A DNA stretch of 32,000 bases from an uncultured Bacteroidota bacterium (GCA_963710745.1 CAVQBP010000025.1:1-32000); one strand, 5' to 3'. Counted from the first letter of the stretch, positions 1,219 through 18,959 are shown. Program-made: numbers and translations. The notes: a model not told the origin generated them from the letters alone.

Positions 1219-1252
1219 AAAACAAAAATAAAGAAAGGGTCTGTAAAATAAT

Positions 1253-2129: not shown

Positions 2130-2167
2130 AAAAATAAATTATACAAATTATAGGAATATGTAAAAGA

Positions 2168-2407: not shown

Positions 2408-2437
2408 TGTGAAAAAACAATTCGATAAATACAGGAA

Positions 2438-2737: not shown

Positions 2738-4659
2738 AACATTTATGAAAATTTTTTATTGAAAAAATGGAAGAAAAGCAGAAACTCCTGGAATTTGAAA
2801 TTTCCATTAAGGAACGGACCAACTGGGGGGTTACCGGAAAAACGTTTTCAAATCAGGTATTAAAAACAAACCGGGTTACGGTATTAAACTCAAAATGCTT
2901 TAGTTGATCAAATGAATAAATTTTATTACAAGATGGATTAGTGCAGATTATTTTTTTTGAGCTCTCTAAAAAACTTTGTATAATTTTATTAAAATCGAAA
3001 GGTCGGGAAATAAAATACTTACGATATTTTGAACCCTCAGGTTTGCCCCACCTTAAATTACTTTCTGAACATAAACCATAGTTTAATGAATAAATTGATT
3101 GTTTTGAACCGTCTCGATCACTCATTTCATCATATTTAGAAATAAAGAAATTCAACTCCAGTGTACTTATAAATTTTTCATAAGTAGGATTAAAATAAAA
3201 ATGACTAGTGAATGGATTTGTCTTTGATAACTCGTATGCACTACCAGATAATTCATTTGTAATTATTCTTTTTCTTATATCAGAAAGTTCCACCAAAAAT
3301 AATCTGAGAAGTTCTTTTAACTGAAGAATCGATATTTTTTCATCGAAAGCCATTCGTGAAAAAGTTGTTTTTTCAAAAAAGCTAGATATTATTTTATTAT
3401 AGTACTTCTGTGATGCAGATATTAGTGCAGAACGATTTATTGGTTTATCAAAAATAATATTACTTTCATAACAATAGTAAAGAATATAACCAATTATTCT
3501 AGGAACGTTCATTGATATTTGAAAAAGCAACTCATAATAATCATCCATAGTATCTTTACTGGTATCAAAGAAATAATCACAAGATCTATTTGTAAAGTAT
3601 TCAATTCTTCTGATTACTAAACGTCTTGTAAAATCTATGGCTCTTTCTTCCATCGTTGACCTATCAAACTCTGAATAAAGGTTATAAAAATCTAAATCTA
3701 ATATGTCTATCTTACCCTTATCAATGCGTCCATAATAAACACGATTTGGATAAGCGGCAACTTTGAATTTAATAAACTCATCAGACCAATTGTTTAAAGG
3801 AGCAAGTAAAACATCTACAAAGGTTTGCATAGAAACGTCATCAATTTCAGAAAAATCATCAAGAAGTATATAAAGTTTCTTTATACCGAGAATCGATAAT
3901 ATATTTTTAATCTCAGTTATAATATCCTTAATACTAAATAATTGTATCAATATTTCAGAATATTTTTTTTCAAAAGCACCTTGAGATGATTGAGAGATAC
4001 TGGAGGTTAAATTGTTTCCATATTTAATTATAAAAGCAGGATTTGTTAAAGAAGCATTTATATCAATATCAGAATTAGTCCCTTCAGAAGATGTCCTAGA
4101 ATTTTCATTTGCAGAAAATAGTGTGGTATTTATTTGTTTGAGTAATGGAATTTCAATTGATTTTAGTTTCTCATTATTATCTATACAATCATATAGTTTT
4201 TCAAGTTCTTCTCTAACAATGTCTGATTTATCTAAACCTAATAGTTTTTTTAGTTGGGTAAGAATTGGTTTTGATTTTTTATCTAACTCTTCTTTTATTT
4301 CTTTTAACACATTTTGAAGAAAATTTCTTTCAAGAAGGTAATTATGTAGAATATTTTGTGGTATTATATCTTTAAGATAATCGAGAGAAATAAATTCTGA
4401 GCGTGATGAATCATAAATAGAAAACGTGTCAATATAACAAGATATGGTTTTGGGATCTTTTCTAATTTCTTGTTGTAATTTTAAGAAAATAGTTGATTTA
4501 CCAGTTCCTTTTCTTCCAATTAAATAAGTTGTGTTATCTTTTAGGCAAGAATTTAATATTTGATCCTTGGGTAACAAATCTGTATATAAATCATCAATAA
4601 GAGTATTCCCCTCATTATCCGATAATTCTGCACGTCTATACTTCTTTAATGAATCTACT

Positions 4660-4664: not shown

Positions 4665-4714
4665 TGTTGATTCCGGTTGAAAATTGACCCAGTATTTCGG
4701 TCAAAACTGACCCA
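4665..4714. repeat. IS21 terminal inverted repeat (istB-proximal end)
   Basis: TGTTGATTCCGGTTGAAAATTGACCCAGTATTTCGGTCAAAACTGACCCA aligns with the reverse complement of 7102..7152. Confidence 0.85.
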
Positions 4715-4720
4715 TCTAAG

Positions 4721-5473
4721 TTAACTAGATTTAATTATATTTTTCAACCTAAAGCTCTTTCCATTTATTAAAAAAGGATAAGAATGATGTAATAGTCTGT
4801 CTAATACAGCAGCAGCAACTACATCGTCATTAAATACTTCACCCCATTCTTCAAAGGGTTTGTTAGTGGTAATAATAATCGAACCGGACTCATAACGTTT
4901 AGATATAAGCTGAAAGAATAATTTAGCAGTCTGTTTACTAAGTGCAAGATAACCAAGCTCATCGATAATAATCAAATCTACTCTTGAGAGACTGTCTAAT
5001 GTTTTATTAAGATTACCTGCAAGTTCAGCAGAAGCAAGTAAAACAGTCAGTTGTTCAGCAGTGAAAAATAGAACTCTTTTCCTTGCTTGTACAGCTTTAA
5101 CACCCAGAGCAGTAGCAAGATGAGTTTTACCAACACCGGGAGCACCAACAAATAGTATGTTCTTTGCTTCATCTAAAAAGTTAAGAGAAGCGAGTTCCCT
5201 GATTAGTTTTTCATTTATCTGAGGTTGATAAGAAAAATCAAATTCCTCCAGACGTTTTATTTGAGGGAAACCAGCGATCTGCATCTTGCGGTTAATTGAA
5301 CGTTCTATTTTGCTTAGAACTTCTATCTCCAAAAGCCGCTGCAAATAGTCTTGGTAACCCAGTTTTGCTTTTGCAGCTTTATCAGCTTCATTTCTATAAG
5401 ACTCTTTTATTCTATGAAGTGAAAGTGTCTTTAAGTATTGGTCCGTTAAGGTTTCAGATTTTCCTTCAGTCAT
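4721..5473 (-). CDS. istB: IS21-family helper ATPase IstB
   Basis: 250 aa. Walker A is GAPGVGKTHLA and Walker B is LIIIDELGY. Typical IstB/DnaC-like length and position downstream of istA. Confidence 0.9.
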   Translation of the reverse strand: MTEGKSETLTDQYLKTLSLHRIKESYRNEADKAAKAKLGYQDYLQRLLEIEVLSKIERSINRKMQIAGFPQIKRLEEFDFSYQPQINEKLIRELASLNFLDEAKNILFVGAPGVGKTHLATALGVKAVQARKRVLFFTAEQLTVLLASAELAGNLNKTLDSLSRVDLIIIDELGYLALSKQTAKLFFQLISKRYESGSIIITTNKPFEEWGEVFNDDVVAAAVLDRLLHHSYPFLINGKSFRLKNIIKSS

Positions 5474-5568
5474 AATGTTTATGCTCCTTTTATTTTAACT
5501 AATGTCCGCTCCACTTTCAGCTTCGCTACGAGATTTCTATGGTCTCTTCGCTGAAGCTGAAGTTCCGC

Positions 5569-7056
5569 TTAGAATAACTTATACTGTGATAATTCACGTT
5601 TTACCTGTCCTTTTGGTATTTCTGTTTTCGTTTTTATTGGTTCTATTCTAAATGATTGTTTATGATTCTTCTCCAGGTACCCGGAGATAAATGAATGATT
5701 AAATACATTGTATTCCATAGACTTATTTAATGCCTCAGTTAAATCAATCTTACTGTAGAGCTTTGATAGATAAAGTATCTGCTTTAGTTGCCTATGGGCA
5801 TTGATTCTTTTCTGAGCCAGAAGTTTTTCCAGAAACATGCTATACCCAGGAAAGCTTTCCAGGAACTTCTCTTTAAGTGTTTCAAAGCTTTCTGTAATGT
5901 CTCTATAGCTTTTGTAATGTTCCGGGATAATAATAGTGCTGCTTTTCTTAACTGAGAGCTGATGTTCTGTAATAAATTTATTTGACTGTGAGTATATCTG
6001 CAGGTAATAGCCTTTTGATATTTTTATCCAAACAAATTTCCCGGCAAACATCCAGGGAACTGAGTATCTTGAGCCGTTATAAGATATAAGACAATCGTAT
6101 GATACTTTACGAGTATCTTCTTTGACTCCTACATATCTGTTCTCTGGTAAGGTAAGTAAAGACAGTTTCTCTTTGTTAAACAAATCATCCGGTGTTGTTT
6201 TAGTTGTTGAATGGACTCTGTTGTTTACATCCTTCTGAAAGTCTTTAAGTTTGTTCTGAAGATCCAGGAAGTCTTCAAAAGAAGAACCTGCAATAAAGTG
6301 AGTCTCAACAAAGCTGAAGGGTTTTTCAACTTTACCTTTACTCCAGGGATGACCGGGAAGAGACCTTGAGGGACTAAATCCATAATGGGCACATAGAGTA
6401 AGATAACGAGGATTCCATTGGAAATTATTCTTGGAAGCATTGATAACAAATGCTTTAGCATTATCCGTCTGAACTCTAAGGCATGCACCTTCTGACTGAA
6501 TTATACTATTTTCCAGAGCTTCGAATATAGCTGCCTGGTTCTGAGAAAGTGATACTTCAAATATCTGGTAACGGCTGAATGAGTTGATGTAAGAGCAGAG
6601 ATAAATTTTGGTAAGCTCTCCTCCAATTAGAACCGTATATGGACTCCAGTCATACTGAGCCTGTTCTCCAGGTGCTGTCTCATAAGGAGTAAAGTGTTTT
6701 TGCTCAGAGATTTTTATTTTGGATAAGAAATCATAGAATGCTGTTTGACTTCCTTTATATCCTTTTGACTTTACTTCGTTAAGTATCCTTGAGCCCTTAA
6801 ACTTCTTCACATTGGTCATCTCGAATATAACATCTCTAAATGGTTCAAGAGCTGATACCTTCTTTTGTCGTTTATATTCGGGAACTTCGCTTCTTTGAAG
6901 AGCTTTCTTAACTGTATTACGGCTTATACCAAGCAGACTTGCTATTTGTCTTGACCCTAATCCGGGATTACGTTTTTTGAGATTTTTTATTGTGACCCAG
7001 TCTTCCATTGTAATCAACTCCTTGTCTCCTTGTAAATGTTTGTTTTTGTTAAACAA
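5569..7056 (-). CDS. istA: IS21-family transposase IstA
   Basis: 495 aa. N-terminal HTH (SRQIASLLGISRNTVKKAL) followed by a DDE/integrase-core-like region (YDWSP..., TDNAKAF...). The real start may be the internal MEDWVTIKN. Confidence 0.9.
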   Translation of the reverse strand: MFNKNKHLQGDKELITMEDWVTIKNLKKRNPGLGSRQIASLLGISRNTVKKALQRSEVPEYKRQKKVSALEPFRDVIFEMTNVKKFKGSRILNEVKSKGYKGSQTAFYDFLSKIKISEQKHFTPYETAPGEQAQYDWSPYTVLIGGELTKIYLCSYINSFSRYQIFEVSLSQNQAAIFEALENSIIQSEGACLRVQTDNAKAFVINASKNNFQWNPRYLTLCAHYGFSPSRSLPGHPWSKGKVEKPFSFVETHFIAGSSFEDFLDLQNKLKDFQKDVNNRVHSTTKTTPDDLFNKEKLSLLTLPENRYVGVKEDTRKVSYDCLISYNGSRYSVPWMFAGKFVWIKISKGYYLQIYSQSNKFITEHQLSVKKSSTIIIPEHYKSYRDITESFETLKEKFLESFPGYSMFLEKLLAQKRINAHRQLKQILYLSKLYSKIDLTEALNKSMEYNVFNHSFISGYLEKNHKQSFRIEPIKTKTEIPKGQVKRELSQYKLF

Positions 7057-7101
7057 ATCTATATAAGGAGATATTTTTAATTCATTTTCCTTTTACAAGG
7101 G

Positions 7102-7152
7102 TGGGTCAATTTTCAACCGGAAAAGTGGGTCAGTTTTCAGACGGAAAAAACA
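7102..7152. repeat. IS21 terminal inverted repeat (istA-proximal end)
   Basis: Its reverse complement is TGTTTTTTCCGTCTGAAAACTGACCCACTTTTCCGGTTGAAAATTGACCCA, with two internal sub-repeats like the other end. Confidence 0.85.
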
Positions 7153-7621: not shown

Positions 7622-8227
7622 TCAGTGTGTTTCAAAATCATTTAACCAAGTACCTAATTTAATTGAACAGAATATTTCAAATATTGCAAGTTCTTCTACA
7701 TTATCTATATTAAATAACGCAACCTTTTGTTTCATCAAAAAGGTTTTTGCAGGTTCAACAAAGTTCTTAAAGTCAAACTGTTTGCGTTTACCTACATATT
7801 GATGACCATTCCGAAACTCATAAACAATTAATCCAATTTTAAATGCGAGTGTTGAAGTGTAATGACTTTTACCTTTTAAGTGCTGAAGGATTCTACCAAT
7901 CACTCCTTTTGATATTCCAACGTAAAAAGGTGTTGAATCAACAAAAAAGACATATAAACCTCTAAAATCAATTTTCTCTGTACCGTCTTTTGTTAAATAC
8001 GTTCTTAACCAATCCTCTTTGATTATGCCATCTTTAACTAGCAATTTTTTTGCAGTCTTTTCACCTTTGTTTAAACCAAAATAGTCCTCAACATTAAAAG
8101 TATTCTGTTTCGAATTTAATGACTTGAATCTTTTGTCAAGATTGCAAATAATTTCTTCAAATGTTTTATCGTATTTACGAGATTGACGGATTACTTTTAG
8201 TATTACCTTTTCAAGTTCTTCATTCAT
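7622..8227 (-). CDS. GIY-YIG-like nuclease domain protein
   Basis: 201 aa. GLYVFFVDSTPFYVGISKGVIGRILQH matches the GIY-x10-YxG-x7-R-x3-H layout, and a downstream acidic segment (EELAIFEIF) could supply the catalytic Glu. Starts 41 nt after orf371 on the same strand. Confidence 0.5.
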   Translation of the reverse strand: MNEELEKVILKVIRQSRKYDKTFEEIICNLDKRFKSLNSKQNTFNVEDYFGLNKGEKTAKKLLVKDGIIKEDWLRTYLTKDGTEKIDFRGLYVFFVDSTPFYVGISKGVIGRILQHLKGKSHYTSTLAFKIGLIVYEFRNGHQYVGKRKQFDFKNFVEPAKTFLMKQKVALFNIDNVEELAIFEIFCSIKLGTWLNDFETH

Positions 8228-8268
8228 TTACAAAACTTATATTGTGTTTAATGAAAAAATTAAAATTT

Positions 8269-9384
8269 CTAAAAAGGTGGCTCTTCTTCAAATTTAAATT
8301 TGCCCTTATAATTAAAATAATTTTTTAATATTCTACCAACATGACTCTCAATAAATTTATTTATATTTAATTTTGAGATTAGAGTATCTGGTATATCCAA
8401 ATACAAGATTAGTTCCTGATCGAAGTATCCAAAATCAATATCTTGTATACCTTTAAATGAATTATCATTGTCAATTTTAGAAATTCCAGCATTTATAATA
8501 TTTAATAACTGTTTTTTACAGATTGAATATTGAAACTGGATTTTATTATAATCAGAGACTATATCACTAAAAAATTCATCTCTTAAATCAGAATAGAATT
8601 TCTTATTCCAATTGAATAGTTCATCATAGCCACACAATATATTTTCAAAATTATCATATTTAACGATGTTAACTTTAAAAAACTCATCCTTACCACTGAC
8701 TATAAATCGGTTAATATAGTTGATATTGTTTACCTCATACCCATCAAGGTTAGACTGGTAAAAATTCATATTGACTAAATCTGTTTGTGCTACAGAAATT
8801 AAGTTAAAATTATAAAAACATTTTGATTGTTTTCTTTCAGATAGACTTTTTAACTCAAATGCTAATGCTTTGATTAAAGTTGAAATTGATTCAAAGATTT
8901 TTTTATCATTTTGAGGTGCACCATTTGTCTTTTTCATTTCTTGGAAGGCAAATACTTTTTTTTCAGTTTTATAAATATTATTTAAAAATTCTTCATGCTG
9001 TAAATTATTATTTATTCTATTCTTCCAATCTGAATTCTTAAGCATATATTCTATGTATCTTTCATTTGTCCAATTCGAGATTGGTAAATAATCAAGATTA
9101 GGGTCAAGTTTATCTGCATTTTTTGAAAGAAATACCCAATCATTTTCCTCGGATTTTTTACAGCTAATAAGTAAAGCCGTGTAATAATAAATATCTTTAA
9201 CAAGCTTTACTTTATAGGCGACTATATCGATTTCCCTCACATTCTCGGTAATATCGTCAACATAGTATCTGTTATTAATTACATTCCATTTGTGCTTGGA
9301 GAGGATTTCACTTACTTGATATTCTAATATGTACCCTGTTTTTTCAATTTGATTTTTATATAAGTCTATTTTCTCACTCATCAA
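8269..9384 (-). CDS. hypothetical protein with an N-terminal PD-(D/E)XK-like (Mrr/NERD-like) module, translationally coupled to hsdS
   Basis: 371 aa. YILEYQVSE...REIDIVAYK...ALLISCKKSE gives an E...D...(S)xK pattern. Its ATG overlaps the hsdS stop by 4 nt (ATGA). Confidence 0.5.
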   Translation of the reverse strand: MMSEKIDLYKNQIEKTGYILEYQVSEILSKHKWNVINNRYYVDDITENVREIDIVAYKVKLVKDIYYYTALLISCKKSEENDWVFLSKNADKLDPNLDYLPISNWTNERYIEYMLKNSDWKNRINNNLQHEEFLNNIYKTEKKVFAFQEMKKTNGAPQNDKKIFESISTLIKALAFELKSLSERKQSKCFYNFNLISVAQTDLVNMNFYQSNLDGYEVNNINYINRFIVSGKDEFFKVNIVKYDNFENILCGYDELFNWNKKFYSDLRDEFFSDIVSDYNKIQFQYSICKKQLLNIINAGISKIDNDNSFKGIQDIDFGYFDQELILYLDIPDTLISKLNINKFIESHVGRILKNYFNYKGKFKFEEEPPF

Positions 9385-10604
9385 TTAACCTTTTGTTCGA
9401 ATGCTTCCTTTAATGCTGATTGGAGGAGTTGTTGTATTAAGTCTTGATTCTTCTTTACTTTTTTTTCTAACTCATCACAAACTTTTAATAATTCTTCTAT
9501 TTTTCTACCTATTCTTTTTTGTTCATTCTTTGGTGGAAGTGGGAAAATTTTTGGATATATTCTTTTACCTGAAATGACAGGTTGAGCACCTTGAAAAGAC
9601 ATACTACCTAGATTCAATGCTCTTAAAGTCCATATCAACCAATCTCTATCTATATTATTTTTTGAATAACTAACAATGAATGCATTATCAGTAATCCAAG
9701 CTTTATTTTCAGTTAAATGAACATTCCCACAATTAGCACCAACTCTACCAATAATAATCGTACGTTCTTCAATATTTGATTTTATATGGTAACCATTTAC
9801 ACCATTACCACCATAAACTGGTAAATTGCCATTTTTATCCATTTGATCAGACGTTAGACCATCACCTGATGTAACGGTTATAATATCACCTAACCTACAC
9901 CAAACCCAATTATCAGGAATTACAAATGGAATATCTTCTTCTTTAGTTGGTGGAATTGGTCTTCCCTTTTTGAGTCTCTTTGCTTTTATGAGTTTCTCTT
10001 TTTCTTGTTGAATTTTTTCTAAAAGAAGAAAAGCAGGTTCATCATTTGGGTCTTTTAAAACTAGCTTACCTTGAATTGCATTATTTAAAATCCGTTGCTT
10101 CAGTTTCTTTAAATTTAATTCTTGATTATTAAGAAGTGAACTTAACTTATCAATAAGTATTGATAATTTTTTTTCTAGTCCAATTATTTTTTTCTGCTTA
10201 TCTAAGGATGGGATCTCAATTTCTAAATCTGCAATTTTATTCATTGGTAAACTAACATTTGCCGCCCCCTTCATTAAAGGGACTAGGAGACTGTCCTTAT
10301 ATTGAGTTAGGTAAATATGAAGATATTTTGCATTTATTATCTTTTCATTCCTTGGAATTAGAGCACATAAAATTGTTCCCAATGCAAACTTACCTTCCTG
10401 ATAGTGAATTCTTTTCATACTTGCATGACCGTGACCTGTACTTGAAATCAGCGGTACGATTACTGCTTTTGCGTTAAACTGATAATTGTTATGTGTTTTT
10501 CTCTCTTCAGATAATGTTACCAATGGATAAGAACCTGGTACTGCCTTTGTAATTCCTGTTGTTCCTTTAGTAAGAGTACATATATCATCTAAACGAAATA
10601 TCAT
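9381..10604 (-). CDS. hsdS: Type I restriction-modification specificity subunit HsdS
   Basis: 407 aa. Two target-recognition halves separated by a coiled conserved spacer (LDKQKKIIGLEKKL... and a C-terminal EQKRIGRKIEELL...). 4-nt overlap with hsdM. Confidence 0.85.
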   Translation of the reverse strand: MIFRLDDICTLTKGTTGITKAVPGSYPLVTLSEERKTHNNYQFNAKAVIVPLISSTGHGHASMKRIHYQEGKFALGTILCALIPRNEKIINAKYLHIYLTQYKDSLLVPLMKGAANVSLPMNKIADLEIEIPSLDKQKKIIGLEKKLSILIDKLSSLLNNQELNLKKLKQRILNNAIQGKLVLKDPNDEPAFLLLEKIQQEKEKLIKAKRLKKGRPIPPTKEEDIPFVIPDNWVWCRLGDIITVTSGDGLTSDQMDKNGNLPVYGGNGVNGYHIKSNIEERTIIIGRVGANCGNVHLTENKAWITDNAFIVSYSKNNIDRDWLIWTLRALNLGSMSFQGAQPVISGKRIYPKIFPLPPKNEQKRIGRKIEELLKVCDELEKKVKKNQDLIQQLLQSALKEAFEQKVN

Positions 10605-12058
10605 GATTTAGTGAGCAATTCTTTAATTTGTGAAATCAGTTCATTCATCTTTTTATCATTTTCTTCAATATTATTCAAAATATCATTTAACGATTCTATA
10701 TTATCCTCACTAACAGAATTGGGATTTTTAATATCTAAGTCATATTTTCTTTCAATTATAGTTCTAATATCTACCCTCCACGAATTACCACTCTCTTTTC
10801 TATTGTTCCACCATTTTTTAATAGGTTCAAATTCTTTCAGACTAAGTGGATTAGTTTTAGAATATGATTTTATACCTTCTTGATATTTATGTTGGTAGTA
10901 CCATACTTCTTTAGTTTTCTTTCCTTTTTGAAAGAATAATAAATTCGTGGCAACTGTGGCGTAGGGTTTAAAAACAGAATTAGGTAATCGTATAATAGTA
11001 TGAAGGTTACAATCCTCTAAAAGTTTTTGCCTAATCCTTTCTTTAACTCCTTCACCTGTCAAAGAACCATCAGGCAACACTATTCCTGCTCTACCACCAT
11101 CTTTAAGTAAGTGAATCATTAAAATCAGAAATAAGTCTGCGCTTTCTTTTGTTTGATAACTCTTTGGAAAGTTTCTTTCATAATTATTTGCTACTATACC
11201 GCCAAAAGGAGGATTAGCAAGAATAATATTCACTCTGTCCTTTTCGGAATAGTTAATTAGTGGTTTATCTAGCGAATCTCTATAAGTAATGTTTGGAACC
11301 TCAATATCGTGCAAAATTAAATTTGTCGTTGCTAAAAGATATGGTAATGGCTTACTTTCCCAACCTGCTACCATATTTTTTATTGATTGTCTTTCTTCAA
11401 CACTATTTGCTTGCGCTTTTAACTTCTCAATTACCGCCGTAAGAAAACCACCAGTTCCGCAAGCAGGATCTAAAATCTTTTCATCTAATTTTGGATTAAC
11501 CATATCGGTTATAAACTGAGTAACAGCACGAGGAGTATAATATTCTCCACTATCACCTGCACTCTGTAACTCCTTTAATATACTTTCATAAATTTCACCA
11601 AACAGATGTCTGTCTTTTGCAATGTTAAAATCGAGTTCATTTAGTTTGTTCAAGGCTTTACGAATGTTGATACCACTTTTCATGTAGTTGTGGTTACCTT
11701 CGAAAACTTCACGAACAATCAATGCTCTGCCATTACCTGTGTTAAGGCTTAGATTTCTTAAGGTTGGGAACAATTTTCTGTCCACGAATTCAAGTAATTC
11801 ATCACCTGTCATTCCTTCATCATCACCCGCCCAATTTCCTTTTTGTTTAATCCAATGAAATTCTTCTGGGATCGGTGACTTGTATCTATCATTGATGAGT
11901 TCTAATTCTCTATCTTTATCACTAAATATTTTTAAGAATAACATCCAACCTAATTGTTCAATCCGTTGAGCATCACCATTAATTCCGATGTCCTGCCTCA
12001 TAATATTACGAATGGATTTTACAACACCTGAAATGTTTGACATAGTATTATCTTTCAA
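10601..12058 (-). CDS. hsdM: Type I restriction-modification DNA methyltransferase subunit HsdM (N6-adenine)
   Basis: HsdM_N-like N-terminus (DAQRIEQLGWMLFLKIF), AdoMet motif DPACGTGGFL and catalytic NPPFG. The tracked start at 12058 is TTG; ATG at 12043 (MSNISGVV...) is the likelier start. Confidence 0.9.
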   Translation of the reverse strand: MKDNTMSNISGVVKSIRNIMRQDIGINGDAQRIEQLGWMLFLKIFSDKDRELELINDRYKSPIPEEFHWIKQKGNWAGDDEGMTGDELLEFVDRKLFPTLRNLSLNTGNGRALIVREVFEGNHNYMKSGINIRKALNKLNELDFNIAKDRHLFGEIYESILKELQSAGDSGEYYTPRAVTQFITDMVNPKLDEKILDPACGTGGFLTAVIEKLKAQANSVEERQSIKNMVAGWESKPLPYLLATTNLILHDIEVPNITYRDSLDKPLINYSEKDRVNIILANPPFGGIVANNYERNFPKSYQTKESADLFLILMIHLLKDGGRAGIVLPDGSLTGEGVKERIRQKLLEDCNLHTIIRLPNSVFKPYATVATNLLFFQKGKKTKEVWYYQHKYQEGIKSYSKTNPLSLKEFEPIKKWWNNRKESGNSWRVDIRTIIERKYDLDIKNPNSVSEDNIESLNDILNNIEENDKKMNELISQIKELLTKS

Positions 12059-12833
12059 TAATAGGAAACCAAAATATGTTTAATAATTTGAGTAGCCATT
12101 CTCGATATTCAATAAAATTAAGGTATATATTATCACTTTGCTCAGGTAAAAATGAGATTAATTCTTCTTGGAATGCTATTTCTCTTAAAATACTCAATTC
12201 GGAACTAATACCTTCCGTGAAGTTTATTGAATCATATGCACGATTAATTTCAAGCAATTGATTAACATCTATTGTGGTTCCTTCTATTTTTATTGGGTCT
12301 GAACAAATATGTTTATCAACCGTATCGAAAAGAACTAGCGGAGATGAATTTATGGGAACTTTTAATCTTTGTATCTCTTGCTGAGCCATATCAAAATGCA
12401 TTGTATTAGTCATTATCGTTTTCTGAGAGAAAAAGGTATTAAAATCATTCATAGTATGAAATAGAGGAGCACAATAATATACTTTCTTTCTTGGTTTCTT
12501 TGCTAACTTTTGCAAATAATTAAATTGTTTAGAACCTGAAACATTATAAATATTAAAAGCATGTTTAGGTGTTATGGAGGTATTAATTGTTATTCCACCT
12601 TTTAAAGAATAAAATATTTTATGATTATAATACTTACTTCTCTTGAATTGGTAATAAACAGAGTATTTATACCTATTCTTTTTACCATATTTTTTCAAGA
12701 TTAAATCCGCAGCCCATTCCTTTTCTTCTCGAGTTGATGGAGCATAAATTCTGAATACATTTGGAATTGAATTAAATAGCTCTCTTGCGTAACCAAGTAC
12801 AAACTGAGTTTCTGAAAATTCACTCTTTAACAT
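12048..12833 (-). CDS. hypothetical protein embedded between hsdR and hsdM; possible PD-(D/E)XK-like fold
   Basis: 261 aa. Its ATG lies 14 nt inside the hsdR 3' end and its stop is 4 nt before the hsdM ATG. SETQFVLGYARELF...WAADLILKK...SVYYQFKRS resembles the E...D...QxK arrangement of DUF4365/NERD-type nucleases; this is a weak, motif-only call. Confidence 0.45.
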   Translation of the reverse strand: MLKSEFSETQFVLGYARELFNSIPNVFRIYAPSTREEKEWAADLILKKYGKKNRYKYSVYYQFKRSKYYNHKIFYSLKGGITINTSITPKHAFNIYNVSGSKQFNYLQKLAKKPRKKVYYCAPLFHTMNDFNTFFSQKTIMTNTMHFDMAQQEIQRLKVPINSSPLVLFDTVDKHICSDPIKIEGTTIDVNQLLEINRAYDSINFTEGISSELSILREIAFQEELISFLPEQSDNIYLNFIEYREWLLKLLNIFWFPIIER

Positions 12834-15213
12834 TATAAATCCTGTAAATTTCTTGTTCTAATTCTCTCACAGCAAAGAGATAATTATCCTTATTACCAAA
12901 TTGATTTATAATTTCTACTGCTGAACCAAAATCTGTTAAAGGTTTAACCTTTAATATTTCCATACTTTCAATATTATCAATCCCTTCGTCAGAGTATTTA
13001 TCTAATAATGCTTCAAGAACCTTTCTTAATTGCTCACCATACTTTGTAAAGTAATTTCTCTTTTTAACATTATTTGCTCGTTCTTTTCGTGTTAATGGTG
13101 GTTGGTCATAAGCAACATGACAAATTATATCAAACAGGTCTACTTCCCAATTAACTGCTTTAAGAAGTTCATCAACCAATACTCCCTGTTCTTCAAGTTC
13201 TTTTATTATTGCTGTTTTTCTATCAGCACTGCTCCAAGAATTTATAAACTCATCGAGTGATGAATAATTTCCTTTTATTATTTTTCTTGTATAATCTTTA
13301 AGACTTGTTGTAATTGGTTTACCATCATTATCAAAATATAAATTACGTGTAACTAAGACTGATACATCAATACCATTTACATAAACTTTTTTACTAGGTG
13401 GTATGTCTATACCTGTCGGAGGTTTTCTAATTTCCGGTGGAACAAATATTATCTCTTCTCCACTTTCATCATCAATCACGGGTGTAGTTTGTAGTTCTTC
13501 CTCATCAACAATTTTTCCAATATCGGTATCTTCAGTTACAGGTTTTATCCTTATTGGTTCACCATCAAAATCTTTATCTGCAAATAAGTCCGTTGCGTTT
13601 CTGAAATCTAAAATATTAAAATATAGTTTATCAAAATCTTCCCTTATTCGAGTTCCTCTACCAATTATCTGTTTAAATTTAGTCATTGATTTAATGTTTG
13701 AATCTAATACAATTACCTTACAAGTTTGTGCATCAACACCTGTAGTCATTAACTCTGAAGTAGTAGCAATTACTGGATATTTTTCTTCGGGATTGATGAA
13801 ATTATCTAATTCCCTTTTCCCTTCATCATTATCACCGGTGATTTGCATTATATACTTGTAATTTTCATGAACAAGATCAGGATTATGCTGAGAAAGTGCA
13901 AACCGCATTCTTTCAGCATGATCAATATCAACACAAAAGATTATTGTTTTTGCAAATCGGTCATAACCTTTTAAGAATTCAGTTACTTTCTTTGCTACCG
14001 TATCTGTTCTTTCTTCAATAACAAGTTTTTTATCAAAATCCGTTCGATTATAAATTCTATCCTCAACGGGTTCTCCCCAAATATCAGTTTTATCTGTAGT
14101 AGGTCTCCAGCCTTCAAGGTCTACATTTAATCCAATTCGAATAACCCTGTATGGTGCAAGAAAACCATCTTCGATACCTTGCCGCAATGAATAAGTGTAA
14201 ATCGGGTCTCCAAAATACTCGATATTACTTAGCGTTTTTGTTTCTTTGGGAGTGGCTGTAAGACCTATCTGAGTAGCTTTATCAAAATATTGAAGTATAT
14301 CTCTCCAAGCACTATCTTCTTTAACACTTCCCCTATGGCACTCGTCAACAATAACCAAATCAAAGAAATCTCGAGAGAATTGTTTGTAGATATTCTTGTC
14401 TTCTTCATTACCTGATAAACCTTGATATAATGACAAATAAAGCTCATAACTTTTATCAACTTCTCTATGCTTTACTACTGTCATTACATCTTTAAAATGT
14501 TTGAAATCCCCAATCCTTGCTTGGTCTATTAAGATATTTCTGTCTGCTAAAAATAGTATTCTTTTTTTAGTACCTGCCTTCCATAATCTGTATGCTATTT
14601 GAAATGCCACATAAGTTTTACCCGTACCTGTTGCCATCACAATAAGAATTCTATTTTCACCCTTTGCAATAGCTTCAACACAACGGTTAATAGCAATCTG
14701 TTGATAATATCTCGGTTTTCTACCAGAACCATCAAAATAAAAATCCTGTGTAACTACTCTTTCAATTTCAGGCGTTTGTATACCTTTAAACTTTTTATAT
14801 TTCTCCCATAAGACATTAGGTGAAGGAAAACTATCAATATCTAATATTACTTCAATACCTTTATCGGTTGCAGTTTTATCATGGAATAGAAATCCATCAC
14901 CATTACTGCTGAATACGAATGGTAAATCAAGTATCCTAGCATAATCTAGTGCTTGTTGTATACCGGCTCTAACTGAATGGTTATTATCTTTTGCTTCAAT
15001 GACAGCAATAGGAATATTTGGTTTATAATAGAGGATGTAATCTGCTTTTTTTGCCTTTCCCCTTTTTGTAAGTTTTCCCCTAACATAGATTTTACCATCT
15101 GTGAAATAAACTTCTTCAAGAAACTGCGTTTGTTTATTCCAATCTGCTTTCTCAAGAGCAGGGGTAATAAATTTTGTGCAAATATCACGTTCTGAAAGAG
15201 TTTTTTTATCCAA
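12820..15213 (-). CDS. hsdR: Type I restriction enzyme endonuclease/translocase subunit HsdR
   Basis: 797 aa. N-terminal SERDICTKFITPALEKADW, helicase motif I MATGTGKT, motif II VIVDECHRG, and a C-terminal DUF3387-like tail. Confidence 0.9.
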   Translation of the reverse strand: MDKKTLSERDICTKFITPALEKADWNKQTQFLEEVYFTDGKIYVRGKLTKRGKAKKADYILYYKPNIPIAVIEAKDNNHSVRAGIQQALDYARILDLPFVFSSNGDGFLFHDKTATDKGIEVILDIDSFPSPNVLWEKYKKFKGIQTPEIERVVTQDFYFDGSGRKPRYYQQIAINRCVEAIAKGENRILIVMATGTGKTYVAFQIAYRLWKAGTKKRILFLADRNILIDQARIGDFKHFKDVMTVVKHREVDKSYELYLSLYQGLSGNEEDKNIYKQFSRDFFDLVIVDECHRGSVKEDSAWRDILQYFDKATQIGLTATPKETKTLSNIEYFGDPIYTYSLRQGIEDGFLAPYRVIRIGLNVDLEGWRPTTDKTDIWGEPVEDRIYNRTDFDKKLVIEERTDTVAKKVTEFLKGYDRFAKTIIFCVDIDHAERMRFALSQHNPDLVHENYKYIMQITGDNDEGKRELDNFINPEEKYPVIATTSELMTTGVDAQTCKVIVLDSNIKSMTKFKQIIGRGTRIREDFDKLYFNILDFRNATDLFADKDFDGEPIRIKPVTEDTDIGKIVDEEELQTTPVIDDESGEEIIFVPPEIRKPPTGIDIPPSKKVYVNGIDVSVLVTRNLYFDNDGKPITTSLKDYTRKIIKGNYSSLDEFINSWSSADRKTAIIKELEEQGVLVDELLKAVNWEVDLFDIICHVAYDQPPLTRKERANNVKKRNYFTKYGEQLRKVLEALLDKYSDEGIDNIESMEILKVKPLTDFGSAVEIINQFGNKDNYLFAVRELEQEIYRIYNVKE

Positions 15214-15321: not shown

Positions 15322-15972
15322 CTATAATGATAATTTCTTTCTAAGGTTAGAAACTAATTTCTTATTTAATTTATTCCTGTGGATATACATGAGAGTTTGT
15401 AACATATGTTCTGCCTTAAATGCATGGTATATTTGTGAATTATGAGTGCTTATTTCAAGAATTTTATTTAATTGTCTAATATTGTAATCGGAGAACTGTT
15501 CAAGGATTTTTACTCTTTGATTTGTTGACTCAAAATCTTCGCTTTTCCCAAAATAGTTAATAGCACTATTTAAGAATTTAACCTTAGTTTTTTTATGAAG
15601 AATCTCAATAATTTTATTATAAGTATACCCATGATTTGATTTTCTGAGATTGATTGCTTGAATTTTCGATAAGAAACCATATGGATTTAAATCAACTTTA
15701 ATCGGGATTATTAGAATTTGTTTTCTTAACGCATATCCTGATTCTTGATCTGTCCAGTCAGACTTTTTAAACTCCTTAGTTAGCAAGGGAATAAATACAT
15801 CCATTTTCTTCAAGCTTTTTAATATTTGTGTTTGCCATTCATCTGTTGGATTAATTGTATCATGCGCTAAGAAAACTTCTAAACCATATTTATTAAAATA
15901 TGCTTTCATTTCACCTGCTAATCTTTTATTTGAGGTGGAATAACTTATAAAAATTTGCAGTATTGATGTCAT
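15322..15972 (-). CDS. TIR-domain protein (stand-alone, ThsB-like size)
   Basis: 216 aa. IFISYSTSNKRLAGEMKAYFNKYGLEVFLAHDTI...DVFIPLLTKEFKKSDWTDQESGYA follows the bacterial TIR_2 pattern, including the conserved Glu. The C-terminal ~100 aa are unassigned. Confidence 0.75.
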   Translation of the reverse strand: MTSILQIFISYSTSNKRLAGEMKAYFNKYGLEVFLAHDTINPTDEWQTQILKSLKKMDVFIPLLTKEFKKSDWTDQESGYALRKQILIIPIKVDLNPYGFLSKIQAINLRKSNHGYTYNKIIEILHKKTKVKFLNSAINYFGKSEDFESTNQRVKILEQFSDYNIRQLNKILEISTHNSQIYHAFKAEHMLQTLMYIHRNKLNKKLVSNLRKKLSL

Positions 15973-16648: not shown

Positions 16649-16702
16649 AAATAACTTTTTTTTATAAAAAATCTTTAGTGGAAAAAATTAGAATTGACTT
16701 AT

Positions 16703-16776
16703 GAGCCTCTTAGGATTTTGAACCTATGGTCTTCCGCATGTGAAACGGACGCTCTAACCAGCTGAGCTAAGAGTCC
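16703..16776 (-). tRNA. tRNA-Val(CAC)-like gene with a defective 3' half (possibly a pseudo or hybrid tRNA)
   Basis: Good D arm (GCTCAGCTGGTTAGAGC) and anticodon arm (TCCGT-TTCACAT-GCGGA). The T arm has only 4 bp with an 8-nt loop, and acceptor pair 3-70 is A.G. Confidence 0.5.
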
Positions 16777-16989
16777 TCGGCAAAATAAAATCTCAAAATG
16801 AAAAACAATCAATTTAGAAAATTGTAATTTTAACCTGATATCTCTATATTTCAAGTCCCTTCAATTGACATTCCTTTTTTGCCCGCCTTCCAAAGAACTT
16901 TGTTCGGCGGACAGGCCAAGATAGGAATATTAATTAGAAGACTTCGTTGAACCTGCCTGCAGTAGCCTTTCGGCAAAGGCAGGCAAGAG

Positions 16990-17874: not shown

Positions 17875-18240
17875 TCAAAATAATTCATAATTTTTGTCTG
17901 TCGGGGTTATACCATAGACAGTCTTGATTAAATCGGCGAAAGAAATGTTATCACAATTTGCAATCGCTTTTAATTCATTGTTTATTGCTACAAGTCTCTG
18001 CTTCTTATATGATTCCCATTCCGCACGATGTAATGCTACATAGTATCCTCTGCTGTCCCCGATAATCCAGTGGCCGTTAGAACGGGCAGCATGTGCAAGT
18101 GATCTCACTTTACGTTTAAATTCGAGCAGGTTAGTCACTTCGAAATTACCTGCTAAATGTTTTGCCCTGACTGCATTATTCTTTCCGTACTTTAGACAGT
18201 TGAGCAGCTGGTTATAGTTCTCAAGCTTTCCCATCTTCAC
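17875..18240 (-). CDS. hypothetical protein (121 aa)
   Basis: ORF starting 2 nt after the upstream gene. No recognised domain. Confidence 0.45.
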   Translation of the reverse strand: MKMGKLENYNQLLNCLKYGKNNAVRAKHLAGNFEVTNLLEFKRKVRSLAHAARSNGHWIIGDSRGYYVALHRAEWESYKKQRLVAINNELKAIANCDNISFADLIKTVYGITPTDKNYELF

Positions 18241-18242
18241 CC

Positions 18243-18563
18243 CTATAATTTTTTGTTGATTAAAAGTTCCACTAACATTTTACAGTCATTGAGGTTTCTG
18301 ATAATCCGGAAGTGCAGCGATTTGTTTAAAGAACTTAGATGAGATAAAAAGAGCTGCAGCTCCTTTTTATCATCCGAAGGAATTTCTTTACCCGGATTAA
18401 CTTCAATAAAAATCAGATATTTCTTTGACACAATAATATGATTTACAAAATATTTCAGGCCGAAAGAAAGGTCATCCTTATTGTTGAAACTGAAGATTTT
18501 AAATCCAAAGTTCGCAAGCCGGCTGAATTCCTTATATATCTGCCTATCGATTTCTTTATCCAT
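18243..18563 (-). CDS. hypothetical protein (106 aa), possibly VRR-NUC/resolvase-like
   Basis: ORF starting 3 nt after the upstream gene. LIFIEVNPGKEIPSDDKKELQLFL loosely resembles the VRR-NUC E-V-K...Q segment (weak). Confidence 0.4.
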   Translation of the reverse strand: MDKEIDRQIYKEFSRLANFGFKIFSFNNKDDLSFGLKYFVNHIIVSKKYLIFIEVNPGKEIPSDDKKELQLFLSHLSSLNKSLHFRIIRNLNDCKMLVELLINKKL

Positions 18564-18566
18564 TTA

Positions 18567-18959
18567 TTAAATGCTAAAAATTTTAGTATGCTTAATATCC
18601 TTTTCTTTCTGGTAACGCTTACGCGATTCCTCACGCTCTTTCATCACAAGCTGCAATGAATCCCGGACTATATCTGTAGTTACAGATCCATCAAGATTGA
18701 TTATTAATTCACATTCATGTGTGAGAATTGTTATAAACCGCTCAAACTCTTCTGATGAAAGCGAGAGGTCATTCATTACAGCCGCTCGAATCTGTTTCTT
18801 TGATAATTTAAGAACGCAGTTTTCACTTGCGGCAATCATATTATTTAACGCCCAAAATTTACCCTCAGCTTCCCAGCCAAGCAGGGAGCGGAGCAATTTA
18901 AATTTCCAATGGTTATGGCTGTCAACGTAATGCGGATAGTACGTAATATTCCTTTTCAA
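18567..18959 (-). CDS. DUF4373-like (phage replisome-organiser N-terminal-like) protein
   Basis: YYPHYVDSHNHWKFKLLRSLLGWEAEGKFWALNNMIA matches the DUF4373 opening pattern (Y/F-x-H-x-x-D...K...L...G..G). Confidence 0.5.
   Translation of the reverse strand: MKRNITYYPHYVDSHNHWKFKLLRSLLGWEAEGKFWALNNMIAASENCVLKLSKKQIRAAVMNDLSLSSEEFERFITILTHECELIINLDGSVTTDIVRDSLQLVMKEREESRKRYQKEKDIKHTKIFSI

What the first reader, a model, noticed from the sequence alone, without database searches (positions are those of the whole stretch)
7622..15213. Type I R-M operon with non-canonical architecture: hsdR-orf261-hsdM-hsdS-orf371(-GIY-YIG)
Every junction is an overlap or a few nucleotides:
- hsdR/orf261 overlap by 14 nt;
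- the orf261 stop lies 4 nt before the hsdM ATG (or 11 nt of overlap with the TTG start);
- hsdM/hsdS overlap as ATGA;
- hsdS/orf371 overlap as ATGA;
- the GIY-YIG-like gene follows 41 nt later.

Two unknown, nuclease-like genes are therefore stoichiometrically tied to a complete Type I system. The established precedents are PrrC embedded in the prr Type Ic locus and the rlo genes of Campylobacter Type I loci. Neither orf261 nor orf371 shows the PrrC/RloC ABC-ATPase features. This may be a new R-M-guarded or R-M-assisted effector arrangement.
Basis: partly seen in the sequence, partly recalled or inferred. Interest (0 to 1): 0.75.

Follow-up and report, generated by a model that had tools for sequence, protein, structure and literature searches.

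The report
Type I restriction operon carrying swappable cargo
This is a complete type IB restriction-modification operon carrying three extra nuclease-type genes that behave as swappable cargo cassettes rather than fixed subunits, which is a known pattern, although the gene between hsdR and hsdM belongs to an uncatalogued family found almost only in that slot.

Summary
The gene layout is real. On the minus strand lie hsdR (EcoAI/type IB), orf261, hsdM, hsdS, orf371 and a GIY-YIG gene, all tightly packed. The claim that the extras are stoichiometrically tied to the system holds only in part.

- **orf261.** It has no Pfam, NCBIfam, PADLOC or PDB relative. In 12 of 13 distinct homologous loci it lies inside an EcoAI-type Type I locus, and in 11 it directly follows hsdR. 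It still behaves as a cassette. In a sister locus with 94 % identical HsdR it is replaced, exactly from the hsdR stop to the hsdM ATG, by an FRG gene (PADLOC candidate PDC-S15). It also shares the slot with PDC-S26 or a GmrSD-like gene, occurs solo once, and shows a recombination tract between diverged loci.
- **orf371.** It has a NERD/Mrr-like nuclease N-domain plus about 270 aa with no structural match. It is a solitary gene: 2 of 80 genome homologues have hsd within 10 kb, and none has a conserved partner.
- **orf201.** It is a free-standing GIY-YIG nuclease.
- **Selection.** All three are under purifying selection.

Genes embedded in Type I loci are already described (PrrC, rlo genes, TgvAB, Payne et al. 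2024). I read this as a new candidate member of a known kind, of moderate interest.

The parts
12820..15213 (-). hsdR, type IB (EcoAI family) restriction subunit, 797 aa, TTG start
   Evidence: NCBIfam NF046051 scores 1153 bits against a cut-off of 550. Pfam gives ResIII, EcoEI_R_C and HSDR_N. The N-terminal nuclease motif D58...E73-A-K75 is intact. It is 65-94 % identical to HsdR of the sister loci.
12048..12833 (-). orf261, the cargo gene embedded in the hsdR|hsdM slot. It belongs to an uncharacterised family and is a putative PD-(D/E)xK-like nuclease with invariant E8, D43, Q62-x-K64, Q103 and P123.
   Evidence: It overlaps hsdR by 14 nt. No Pfam, NCBIfam or PADLOC hit. It has 30 close homologues, and the superfamily has 597 cluster representatives. 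The AF2 model has pLDDT 77, and Foldseek gives only weak hits to PD-(D/E)xK folds. It is embedded in Type IB loci in 12 of 13 loci. dN/dS is 0.13-0.18.
10601..12043 (-). hsdM, the methyltransferase subunit (ATG at 12043; alternative TTG at 12058)
   Evidence: Pfam N6_Mtase 5e-72 and HsdM_N. PADLOC MTase_I 8e-184. The ATG is the point where homology with sister loci resumes.
9381..10604 (-). hsdS, the specificity subunit with two target-recognition domains
   Evidence: Pfam Methylase_S with two stretches. It has an ATGA overlap with hsdM. Only the conserved spacer regions align with sister loci, as expected when the recognition domains vary.
8269..9381 (-). orf371, cargo gene placed after hsdS. 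It is a solitary-type gene with a NERD/Mrr-like PD-(D/E)xK N-terminal domain (E20, D52, S73-x-K75) and about 270 aa with no structural match.
   Evidence: The AF2 model has pLDDT 94.5. In Foldseek the N-terminal ~65 aa match the R2 RLE domain and AF1548 at probability 0.98-0.99. 9 of 61 family members give weak NERD hits. Only 2 of 80 genome homologues have hsd nearby, and there is no conserved neighbour. dN/dS is 0.11.
7622..8227 (-). orf201, a small GIY-YIG family nuclease gene lying 41 nt after orf371
   Evidence: Pfam GIY-YIG E=0.0057, which is sub-threshold. The motif GLYVFFVDSTPFYVG starts at residue 90. Homologues carry PF01541 and are named GIY-YIG nucleases. It is present in L001 without orf371 and in L010 with it, and it is free-standing in L106 and L107.
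15322..15972 (-). TIR-domain gene 108 nt upstream of hsdR. It is neighbouring cargo that sister loci do not share.
   Evidence: Pfam TIR_2 1.6e-18. PADLOC gives ThsB-like hits, and the C-terminus matches PDC-S34. Homology with L001 and L010 begins only 14 nt upstream of the hsdR start.
4671..7146 (-). IS21-family element (istA 7056..5569, istB 5473..4721) about 0.5 kb downstream of orf201. It marks the present end of the cargo array.
   Evidence: Pfam rve/Mu-transpos_C_2 and IstB_IS21. Perfect 21-nt inverted repeats lie at 4671-4691 and 7102-7122. A second partial terminal repeat lies at about 7125-7146, so the outer boundary is approximate.
16702..16777 (-). tRNA-Val (CAC) flanking the island
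   Evidence: ARAGORN and Rfam.

Best explanation
The block is a complete EcoAI-family (type IB) hsdR-hsdM-hsdS restriction-modification operon. It lies in a defence island beside tRNA-Val, probably in an Ignavibacteriaceae genome.

The operon has two cargo slots. Slot 1 runs exactly from the hsdR stop to the hsdM start and holds orf261. Slot 2 starts exactly at the hsdS stop and holds orf371, followed by the GIY-YIG gene orf201.

The cargo genes are separately evolving single-gene nuclease-type modules. They are exchanged between related Type I loci by recombination in the conserved hsd flanks. They are probably co-transcribed and translationally coupled with the hsd genes.

Each most likely acts as its own second-line or complementary anti-phage effector, not as a subunit of the Type I enzyme. 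orf261 is a putative metal-dependent PD-(D/E)xK-like nuclease (E8/D43/Q62-x-K64). orf371 is a NERD/Mrr-like nuclease head on an uncharacterised C-terminal region, which may be a sensor or regulator.

Shown here: gene identities, slot boundaries, cassette swapping, independent assortment, purifying selection, and slot-sharing with catalogued defence candidates. Inferred: anti-phage function, nuclease activity and a single transcript.
For: - The Type IB assignment is secure.
- orf261 homologues at 38-79 % identity lie in EcoAI-type loci in 12 of 13 distinct loci. In 11 of them orf261 directly follows hsdR with a 1-14 nt overlap or a 2-nt gap.
- L001 and L010 share HsdR, HsdM and HsdS at 94, 90 and 88 % identity, yet carry orf261 versus FRG in slot 1 and DUF6161 plus a 230-aa gene versus orf371 in slot 2. 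Their DNA homology breaks 13 nt before the hsdR stop, resumes at the hsdM ATG, and breaks again at the hsdS stop. The window is a third combination, orf261 with orf371.
- The alternative slot-1 occupants are PADLOC embedded candidates: PDC-S15 (2e-113) and PDC-S26 (2.5e-115). In L009 the gene upstream of orf261 is GmrSD-like.
- Slot-2 cargo in sister loci is AbiZ-like, AbiP/AbiC-like, PDC-S11, PDC-M65A/B or McrB-like.
- Between L093 and L094, orf261 has dS 0.39 against 3.3 and 2.7 for the flanking hsdR and hsdM. DNA identity is 84-91 % across orf261 against about 77-81 % in the flanks, which indicates cassette exchange.
- orf371 is solitary in 78 of 80 genomes and has no conserved partner. orf201 is free-standing.
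- dN/dS is 0.11-0.25 for all three cargo genes.
- The orf371 N-domain matches restriction-endonuclease-like folds at probability 0.98-0.99.
- The general principle is published: Payne et al. 2024 and TgvAB.
Against: - There is no functional data of any kind.
- The orf261 fold assignment is weak. Foldseek E-values are 0.02 or worse in both libraries searched. hhalign finds no relation to orf371 or to the HsdR nuclease domain.
- The four distinct contexts of distant orf261 superfamily members that were examined contain no hsd genes. Those annotated by Pfam are polysaccharide-synthesis and pilin clusters, so 'defence' does not generalise to the superfamily.
- The near-exclusive embedding of the orf261 clade, and its constant attachment to the hsdR 3' end even when PDC-S26 is inserted before hsdM (L109), would also fit a real functional dependence on the Type I enzyme.
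- The 12 of 13 loci are not independent events, because the HsdR and orf261 identities are roughly congruent.
- The hsd survey around orf371 used phmmer with type IB probes and could miss very divergent Type I families.
Confidence: 0.6

Rival explanations
1. PrrC-like guard. orf261 is a latent toxic nuclease held inactive by contact with the EcoAI-type HsdR/HsdM complex. It is released when a phage anti-restriction protein (Ocr-, Stp- or ArdA-like) disables the Type I enzyme, and it then causes abortive infection.
For: - The clade is almost exclusively embedded in Type I loci (12 of 13). Payne et al. single out this property for PrrC.
- The start overlaps the hsdR stop in most loci, which fits coupled 1:1 synthesis with HsdR.
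- orf261 stays attached to hsdR when another gene is inserted before hsdM (L109).
- After cassette exchange it lands in the same slot again.
- It evolves faster than HsdR (39-85 % against 68-94 % identity) and has a variable C-terminal third, as expected for an arms-race interface.
Against: - It has no ABC-ATPase or other recognisable sensor module.
- It is replaced by an unrelated FRG gene in a near-identical backbone.
- A solo copy lies in a different defence-like neighbourhood (L095).
- A copy truncated to 119 aa is tolerated in L097.
- Landing in the same slot is also what homologous recombination in the hsd flanks would produce without any functional link.
Confidence: 0.2
2. orf261 is an accessory subunit or regulator of this clade of Type IB enzymes. 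It might provide a second cleavage activity, act as an assembly factor, or control restriction alleviation. orf371 and orf201 would be unrelated neighbours.
For: - The conserved position and coupling to hsdR.
- Co-divergence with hsdR and hsdM in the window versus L001 pair, where dS is about 1.0 for all three genes.
Against: - HsdR keeps an intact nuclease motif of its own.
- L010 has near-identical hsdRMS genes (94/90/88 %), all full-length, without orf261.
- orf261 has no DNA-binding HTH or known regulator domain.
- It occurs solo in L095 and truncated in L097.
- Type IB enzymes such as EcoAI are established as R2M2S1 complexes without extra subunits (general knowledge; stoichiometry restated in PMC11411939).
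Confidence: 0.07
3. The extra genes are selfish or passenger genes with no role in phage defence, such as homing-type free-standing endonucleases or addiction modules. They would accumulate in the hsd operon because it is a tolerant 'genomic sink'.
For: - All three are small stand-alone nuclease-type genes.
- The orf261 superfamily, orf371 and orf201 are scattered in unrelated contexts.
- Presence/absence and replacement polymorphism occurs at exact gene boundaries.
- An IS21 element lies next door.
- Payne et al. list the genomic-sink idea as one explanation for embedding.
Against: - Purifying selection acts on all three genes.
- orf261 diverges to 38 % identity while keeping its slot, which does not look like recent selfish spread.
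- There is no empty-site allele. The slot is filled by other defence candidates instead.
- Neither orf261 nor orf371 has a relative in 50,697 phage records.
Confidence: 0.12

Closest known systems
PrrC anticodon nuclease embedded in the EcoprrI Type IC locus (and RloC)
   Same: It is a single effector gene nested inside a Type I hsd operon on the same strand. The family is found almost exclusively embedded (Payne et al. 2024), as is the orf261 clade (12 of 13 loci).
   Different: PrrC and RloC are ABC-ATPase-plus-anticodon-nuclease proteins, whereas orf261 has no Walker A motif and no PADLOC PrrC hit. The host here is type IB rather than IC. Whether orf261 is regulated by the R-M complex is untested.
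Embedded phage-defence candidates of Payne et al. 2024 (PADLOC PDC-S15 FRG-domain and PDC-S26 PDDEXK_4)
   Same: They occupy the very same hsdR|hsdM slot in sister Type IB loci (L010, L109). They are single genes on the same strand, tightly packed.
   Different: There is no sequence relation to orf261. Neither orf261 nor orf371 matches any PADLOC v2 model at E <= 0.1, so they are uncatalogued families.
TgvAB / BrxU (GmrSD-like type IV systems embedded in Type I R-M or BREX)
   Same: They are defence genes embedded in a Type I operon that give complementary protection and work without HsdR activity (PMC11411939). A GmrSD-like gene sits next to orf261 in L009.
   Different: TgvAB is a two-gene DUF262/DUF1524 system that targets hypermodified DNA. 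orf261 is a single gene with neither domain.
Campylobacter jejuni rlo genes in Type I loci (Miller et al. 2005, cited in PMC11411939)
   Same: They are variable ORFs interspersed between hsdR, hsdS and hsdM, with different cargo in different strains.
   Different: They belong to different Type I families and different cargo families. The comparison is by architecture only and was not tested by sequence here.
NERD / Mrr-type PD-(D/E)xK nucleases (for orf371) and GIY-YIG nucleases (for orf201)
   Same: The orf371 N-terminal ~65 aa superpose on restriction-endonuclease-like domains (R2 RLE, AF1548) at probability 0.98-0.99, and 9 of 61 members give weak NERD hits. orf201 has the GIY...YIG motif, and its homologues pass PF01541.
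   Different: orf371 has S73 in place of the usual acidic residue of (D/E)xK. It also carries about 270 further residues with no structural match in the PDB. No orf371 member reaches a Pfam gathering threshold.

Membership tests
Type IB (EcoAI-family) restriction-modification system | HsdR of the EcoAI/FtnUII equivalog class with an EcoEI_R_C domain | tested here: met
   NF046051 scores 1153 bits against a cut-off of 550. PF08463 scores 2e-35.
Type IB (EcoAI-family) restriction-modification system | HsdM (N6-adenine methyltransferase with HsdM_N) and HsdS with two target-recognition domains, all in one operon | tested here: met
   N6_Mtase 5e-72 and HsdM_N. Methylase_S gives two stretches. All genes are on the same strand with overlapping junctions.
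Type IB (EcoAI-family) restriction-modification system | Intact HsdR catalytic motifs (PD-ExK nuclease and DEAD-box motor) | tested here: met
   D58...E73-A-K75 is visible, and ResIII/SWI2_SNF2 domains are present. Enzymatic activity cannot be tested with these tools.
PrrC / RloC anticodon nucleases | N-terminal ABC-ATPase with a Walker A motif | tested here: not met
   No [AG]xxxxGK[ST] motif in orf261, orf371 or orf201. No PADLOC PrrC or other ATPase hit.
PrrC / RloC anticodon nucleases | Kept latent by the Type I complex and activated by a phage anti-restriction factor | not testable with these tools
   This requires co-expression and interaction experiments.
Genes embedded in defence systems (criteria of Payne et al. 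2024) | Nested between genes of one multi-gene defence system, on the same strand | tested here: met
   Met for orf261, which lies between hsdR and hsdM. orf371 and orf201 follow the last system gene, so they are adjacent to the system, not embedded in it.
PADLOC v2 catalogue of known systems and PDC candidates | Match to a PADLOC HMM | tested here: not met
   No hit for orf261 or orf371 at E <= 0.1. orf201 gives only E=0.0086 to PDC-S14.
PD-(D/E)xK nuclease superfamily (orf261) | alpha-beta-beta-beta-alpha-beta core carrying E...D...(D/E/Q)xK | tested here: inconclusive
PD-(D/E)xK nuclease superfamily, NERD/Mrr-like (orf371 N-domain) | Restriction-endonuclease-like fold with a conserved acidic/Lys triad | tested here: met
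   Foldseek probability is 0.98-0.99 to the R2 RLE domain and AF1548 over about 65 aa. E20, D52 and K75 are nearly invariant. S73 replaces the usual acidic residue. Pfam NERD hits are sub-threshold in 9 of 61 members.
GIY-YIG nuclease superfamily (orf201) | GIY-(10-11 aa)-YIG motif and a match to PF01541 | tested here: met
   GLYVFFVDSTPFYVG starts at residue 90. The window protein is sub-threshold (17.4 bits against 22.6), but a dozen or so homologues carry PF01541 or PF20815 and some are named GIY-YIG nucleases.

The most novel reading that the evidence does not exclude
orf261 founds a new class of Type I-dependent guard effectors. In this reading it is a small PD-(D/E)xK-like nuclease, with no ATPase sensor, that is made 1:1 with HsdR by translational coupling. 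The type IB complex holds it inactive and it is unleashed when a phage anti-restriction protein disables that complex. It would be a PrrC-like logic built from entirely different parts, and specific to EcoAI-family systems.
Probability: 0.17. Interest if true: 0.7.

Novelty: new member of a known kind. Interest (0 to 1): 0.4.

Why it matters
The finding adds two uncatalogued protein families to the pool of untested defence candidates linked to Type I R-M. orf261 belongs to a superfamily of about 600 sequence clusters with no Pfam, PADLOC or PDB relative. orf371 combines a NERD-like head with a large domain of unknown function.

It also gives an unusually clean natural experiment. Three near-identical backbones carry different combinations of cargo, with breakpoints exactly at hsd gene boundaries. 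This shows how embedded defence cassettes are shuffled by recombination in the conserved hsd flanks.

The near-exclusive residence of the orf261 clade next to hsdR makes it a specific, testable candidate for a second PrrC-type dependency on a Type I enzyme. If instead it is only an independent nuclease, this is a routine addition to a long candidate list.

Tried and rejected
- **Profile searches for orf261.** Searches of the orf261 family (A1) and superfamily (A3) against PDB sequences gave only noise. Scanning 28 and then 67 members individually against Pfam gave no recurring family.
- **Tests of relatedness.** hhalign of the orf261 superfamily against the orf371 family and against the HsdR N-terminal nuclease domain found no relation. 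I therefore rejected the ideas that orf261 and orf371 are paralogues, and that orf261 is a detached HsdR nuclease domain.
- **Partner gene for orf371.** I looked for a conserved partner in 80 genomes by clustering the +/-3 neighbouring genes and found none. orf371 plus orf201 is therefore not a fixed two-gene system. orf201 also occurs without orf371 in L001.
- **Phage and plasmid relatives.** tblastn of orf261 against phage and plasmid collections found nothing. orf371 gave only five plasmid 'hypothetical protein' hits and no phage hit. A phage origin or an anti-restriction identity is therefore unsupported.
- **Promoters and terminators.** The sigma-70 promoter and terminator scans were no better than shuffled sequence. 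They say nothing about transcript structure, and this phylum probably uses other promoter types.
- **Structured RNA.** Rfam found only the two tRNAs.
- **putAbiC remnant.** I considered that IS21 had cut a putAbiC gene off orf201, as in L001 and L010. Homology to the sister loci ends at the orf201 stop, and no remnant was detected.

Full report
**1. Observation**

Six same-strand ORFs lie on the minus strand of the window:

| Gene | Coordinates | Length |
|---|---|---|
| hsdR | 15213..12820 | 797 aa |
| orf261 | 12833..12048 | 261 aa |
| hsdM | 12043..10601 | 480 aa (485 from the alternative TTG at 12058) |
| hsdS | 10604..9381 | 407 aa |
| orf371 | 9381..8269 | 370 aa |
| orf201 | 8227..7622 | 201 aa |

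I read every junction directly.
- hsdR and orf261 overlap by 14 nt.
- orf261 and hsdM are separated by a 4-nt gap. The ATG at 12043 is the conserved start, because homology with sister loci resumes 1 nt before it.
- hsdM and hsdS overlap as ATGA.
- hsdS and orf371 read AAT-TGA-TGA. This is a 1-nt overlap with the ATG start, or TTGA with the TTG start.
- orf201 begins 41 nt after orf371.

**2. The host system**

HsdR is an EcoAI/FtnUII-family (type IB) equivalog, scoring 1153 bits against a cut-off of 550. It has ResIII and EcoEI_R_C domains and an intact nuclease motif, D58...E73-A-K75. HsdM has N6_Mtase plus HsdM_N, and HsdS has two Methylase_S stretches, so both are canonical. The Type I system is complete and looks functional.

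**3. The region**

The block sits in a defence-island-like stretch.
- tRNA-Val lies at 16702-16777.
- A TIR-domain gene lies 108 nt upstream of hsdR.
- Downstream are an IS21 element with perfect 21-nt inverted repeats at 4671-4691 and 7102-7122, a 574-aa AAA_16 ATPase, a DUF72 gene and an REase-ARP nuclease.
- The closest protein matches point to an Ignavibacteriaceae MAG.

**4. orf261**

*Family.* orf261 has no hit in Pfam, NCBIfam or PADLOC. It has 30 close homologues at 38-100 % identity. An exhaustive profile search finds 597 cluster representatives at E <= 0.001, all of them single proteins of about 240-290 aa.

*Conserved residues.* Across 67 diverse members (mean column identity 19 %), the invariant residues are E8, D43, Q62, K64, Q103 and P123. 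None of the 67 matches a Pfam family, and no PDB sequence is related.

*Structure.* The AF2 model is usable (pLDDT 77, pTM 0.72). Foldseek finds nothing significant. The weak hits are repeatedly PD-(D/E)xK enzymes: HincII, the SPARDA nuclease domain and Card1 in the PDB, and VRR-NUC, RecU and Holliday-junction resolvases in BFVD.

*Reading.* With the E...D...QxK pattern this makes a PD-(D/E)xK-like nuclease the best guess, but it is an inference. hhalign shows no relation to orf371 or to HsdR's own nuclease domain.

**5. orf261 context**

I examined 13 distinct loci of the orf261 clade.
- **hsdR directly upstream (11 loci).** These are the window, L001, L004, L007, L093, L094, L097, L108, L109, L110 and L111. 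An EcoAI-type hsdR sits directly upstream of orf261, with a 1-14 nt overlap or a 2-nt gap. hsdM follows within a few nucleotides wherever the contig allows it to be seen.
- **L109.** The order is hsdR-orf261-PDDEXK_4-hsdM-hsdS, so orf261 stays with hsdR when another gene is inserted.
- **L009.** The gene upstream of orf261 is GmrSD-like (DGQQR motif) and the contig ends inside it. hsdM and hsdS follow.
- **L095.** This 40 % identical copy stands alone, next to DUF6934, ThiF, HNH and KAP-NTPase genes.
- **L097.** The copy is truncated to 119 aa.
- **Distant relatives.** The distant superfamily relatives examined (L098-L105, four distinct contexts) have no hsd genes nearby. Those annotated by Pfam lie in polysaccharide-synthesis or pilin clusters.

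The clade, but not the superfamily, is tightly hsd-embedded.

**6. orf261 is nevertheless a cassette**

- **Swap between L001 and L010.** The two loci share the same island backbone, with HsdR, HsdM and HsdS at 94, 90 and 88 % identity. L010 carries a 330-aa FRG-domain gene where L001 has orf261. DNA homology stops 13 nt before the hsdR stop and resumes exactly at the hsdM ATG.
- **Alternative occupants are catalogued.** The FRG gene is PADLOC candidate PDC-S15 (2e-113). The PDDEXK_4 gene of L109 is PDC-S26 (2.5e-115). Both come from the 'guilt-by-embedding' catalogue.
- **Exchange between L093 and L094.** orf261 has dS 0.39, while the flanking hsdR and hsdM are saturated (dS 3.3 and 2.7). DNA identity is 84-91 % over orf261 against about 77-81 % in the flanks. 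This is a recombination tract that coincides with the cassette.
- **Co-inheritance elsewhere.** Between the window and L001, dS is about 1.0 for hsdR, orf261 and hsdM alike, so there the block was inherited together.
- **Selection and rate.** orf261 is under purifying selection (dN/dS 0.13-0.18) but evolves faster than HsdR (39-85 % against 68-94 % identity). Its C-terminal third is the most variable part.

**7. orf371**

*Structure.* The AF2 model is excellent (pLDDT 94.5, pTM 0.89). Only the N-terminal ~65 residues match solved structures: the restriction-endonuclease-like domains of R2 retrotransposon proteins and AF1548, at probability 0.98-0.99. The near-invariant residues E20, R49-E-I-D52 and S73-C-K75-K76 fit a NERD/Mrr-type PD-(D/E)xK core with Ser in place of the second acidic residue. 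9 of 61 members give sub-threshold NERD hits. The remaining ~270 residues have no PDB match.

*Context.* Among 80 genome loci with homologues at 27-49 % identity, from many phyla, only two have anything hsd-like within 10 kb. Both are 5-6 kb away on the other strand. Clustering the three genes on each side reveals no conserved partner. Only the closest relatives (70 % identity; L010 and L011) follow hsdS.

*Conclusion.* orf371 is a solitary single-gene module that happens to occupy the post-hsdS position in this lineage.

**8. orf201**

The window protein is sub-threshold for PF01541. It has the GLY...YVG motif. Among its 52 homologues, about a dozen carry PF01541 or PF20815, and some are named GIY-YIG nucleases by their sources. 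It occurs in L001 without orf371 and in L010 with it. It is free-standing in a Flavobacterium genome and in a housekeeping context. It is an independent small GIY-YIG gene with dN/dS 0.16-0.25.

**9. Two slots that assort independently**

- Homology between L001 and L010 ends exactly at the hsdS stop and resumes inside orf201. The swapped cargo is DUF6161 plus a 230-aa gene against orf371.
- The window combines slot 1 of L001 (orf261) with slot 2 of L010 (orf371).
- Homology with the sister loci begins only 14 nt upstream of hsdR, so the TIR gene is a further variable neighbour.
- Slot-2 cargo elsewhere is AbiZ-like, AbiP/AbiC-like, PDC-S11, PDC-M65A/B or McrB-like.

The architecture is therefore a conserved hsdRMS scaffold with exchangeable defence-type cargo, not a fixed six-gene machine.

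**10. Comparison with what is known**

- Genes nested inside Type I R-M operons are an established theme. Examples are PrrC in EcoprrI, the Campylobacter rlo genes, TgvAB in Vibrio cholerae VPI-2 (PMC11411939) and the systematic 'guilt-by-embedding' study of Payne et al. 2024 (bioRxiv 10.1101/2024.01.29.577857).
- That study reports that more than half of embedded genes have no assigned function. It notes that PrrC is almost exclusively found embedded.
- It discusses a genomic sink, co-transfer, back-up, complementarity and co-regulation as possible reasons for embedding.
- orf261 and orf371 match none of the PADLOC v2 models derived from that work. They lack ABC-ATPase motifs.
- They are new candidate families within a known kind of arrangement.

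**11. Most likely mechanism, and rivals**

| Explanation | Confidence |
|---|---|
| Best: the cargo genes are independently acting nuclease effectors, co-expressed with the Type I system, that give complementary or second-line protection and are shuffled by recombination in the hsd flanks | about 0.6 |
| Main rival: orf261 is a PrrC-like guard that depends on the type IB complex | about 0.2 |
| The cargo genes are selfish or passenger nucleases | about 0.12 |
| orf261 is a true subunit or regulator of the enzyme | about 0.07 |

The guard model is favoured by orf261's near-exclusive embedding and its constant coupling to the hsdR 3' end. It is weakened by the FRG swap, the solo copy and the truncated copy. 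The subunit model is disfavoured because L010 has near-identical, full-length hsdRMS genes without orf261 and because HsdR keeps its own nuclease motif.

**12. Verdict**

I rate the finding as a new member of a known kind, with interest about 0.4. The most novel reading still open is a PrrC-like dependency built on a nuclease without an ATPase, at about 0.17 probability.

Noticed in passing
window 15322-15972 (minus strand): A TIR-domain gene (TIR_2 1.6e-18; ThsB-like PADLOC hits) lies 108 nt upstream of hsdR. Its C-terminal part (residues 125-200) matches PADLOC candidate PDC-S34. It is not shared by sister loci, whose homology begins 14 nt before hsdR. It is probably another independent defence cargo gene.
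   Followed up: partly
window 4671-7146: An IS21-family element (istA and istB) has perfect 21-nt inverted repeats at 4671-4691 and 7102-7122, plus a second partial terminal repeat at about 7125-7146. It lies where sister loci L001 and L010 carry putAbiC (AbiP-like) and DUF4268 (PDC-S11) after orf201. No remnant of those genes was found in the window.
   Followed up: partly
window 265-4577: Further defence-type genes lie beyond the IS: an REase-ARP/PDDEXK_13 nuclease (265-1218, plus strand), a DUF72 gene (1524-2129) and a 574-aa AAA_16 ATPase (2853-4577). None matches a PADLOC model.
   Followed up: partly
window 16702-16777 and 17875-18959: tRNA-Val (CAC) borders the island. Just beyond it are three small same-strand genes, one with a Lin1244_N domain, which may be a remnant of an integrated element. 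No integrase or attachment repeats were sought.
   Followed up: no
L093 9934-10833 versus L094: The orf261 cassette is 84-91 % identical in DNA between two loci whose flanking hsdR and hsdM are only about 77-81 % identical (dS 0.39 against about 3). This is a recombination tract that coincides with the embedded gene.
   Followed up: yes
L097 4296-4655: The orf261 homologue is truncated to 119 aa, with about 170 nt of non-coding sequence before hsdM. This copy is apparently decaying, so the gene can be lost while hsdR, and at least the start of hsdM before the contig ends, remain.
   Followed up: partly
L004 12195-14321, L093 12204-14513, L094 4985-7117, L108 8304-10259, L111 4083-6194: The HsdS-like genes in several sister loci are unusually long (650-770 aa against 407 aa here). 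The one in L004 has no precomputed Pfam hit. They may be fusions or carry extra recognition domains.
   Followed up: no
L009 1-1953: A GmrSD-like gene lies directly upstream of the orf261 homologue. It has the DUF262 'DGQQR' motif and an AlbA_2/Schlafen-like C-terminal region. It shows that the same slot can hold two cargo genes. The contig ends inside it, so hsdR was not seen.
   Followed up: partly
window 9378-9386 (minus strand): hsdS ends with a tandem in-frame stop, TGA-TGA. The orf371 ATG is formed across the first stop (TGATGA). The 1-nt overlap of the hsdS stop with the orf371 ATG is also seen in L010 (coordinates only).
   Followed up: partly
L012/L015 (Billgrantia ethanolica) and plasmid hits H1-H5: Solitary orf371 homologues occur next to a T6SS VgrG/DUF4123 cluster in Billgrantia. 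They also occur on plasmids of Priestia, Enterobacter and Leptospira, always annotated as 'hypothetical protein'.
   Followed up: no
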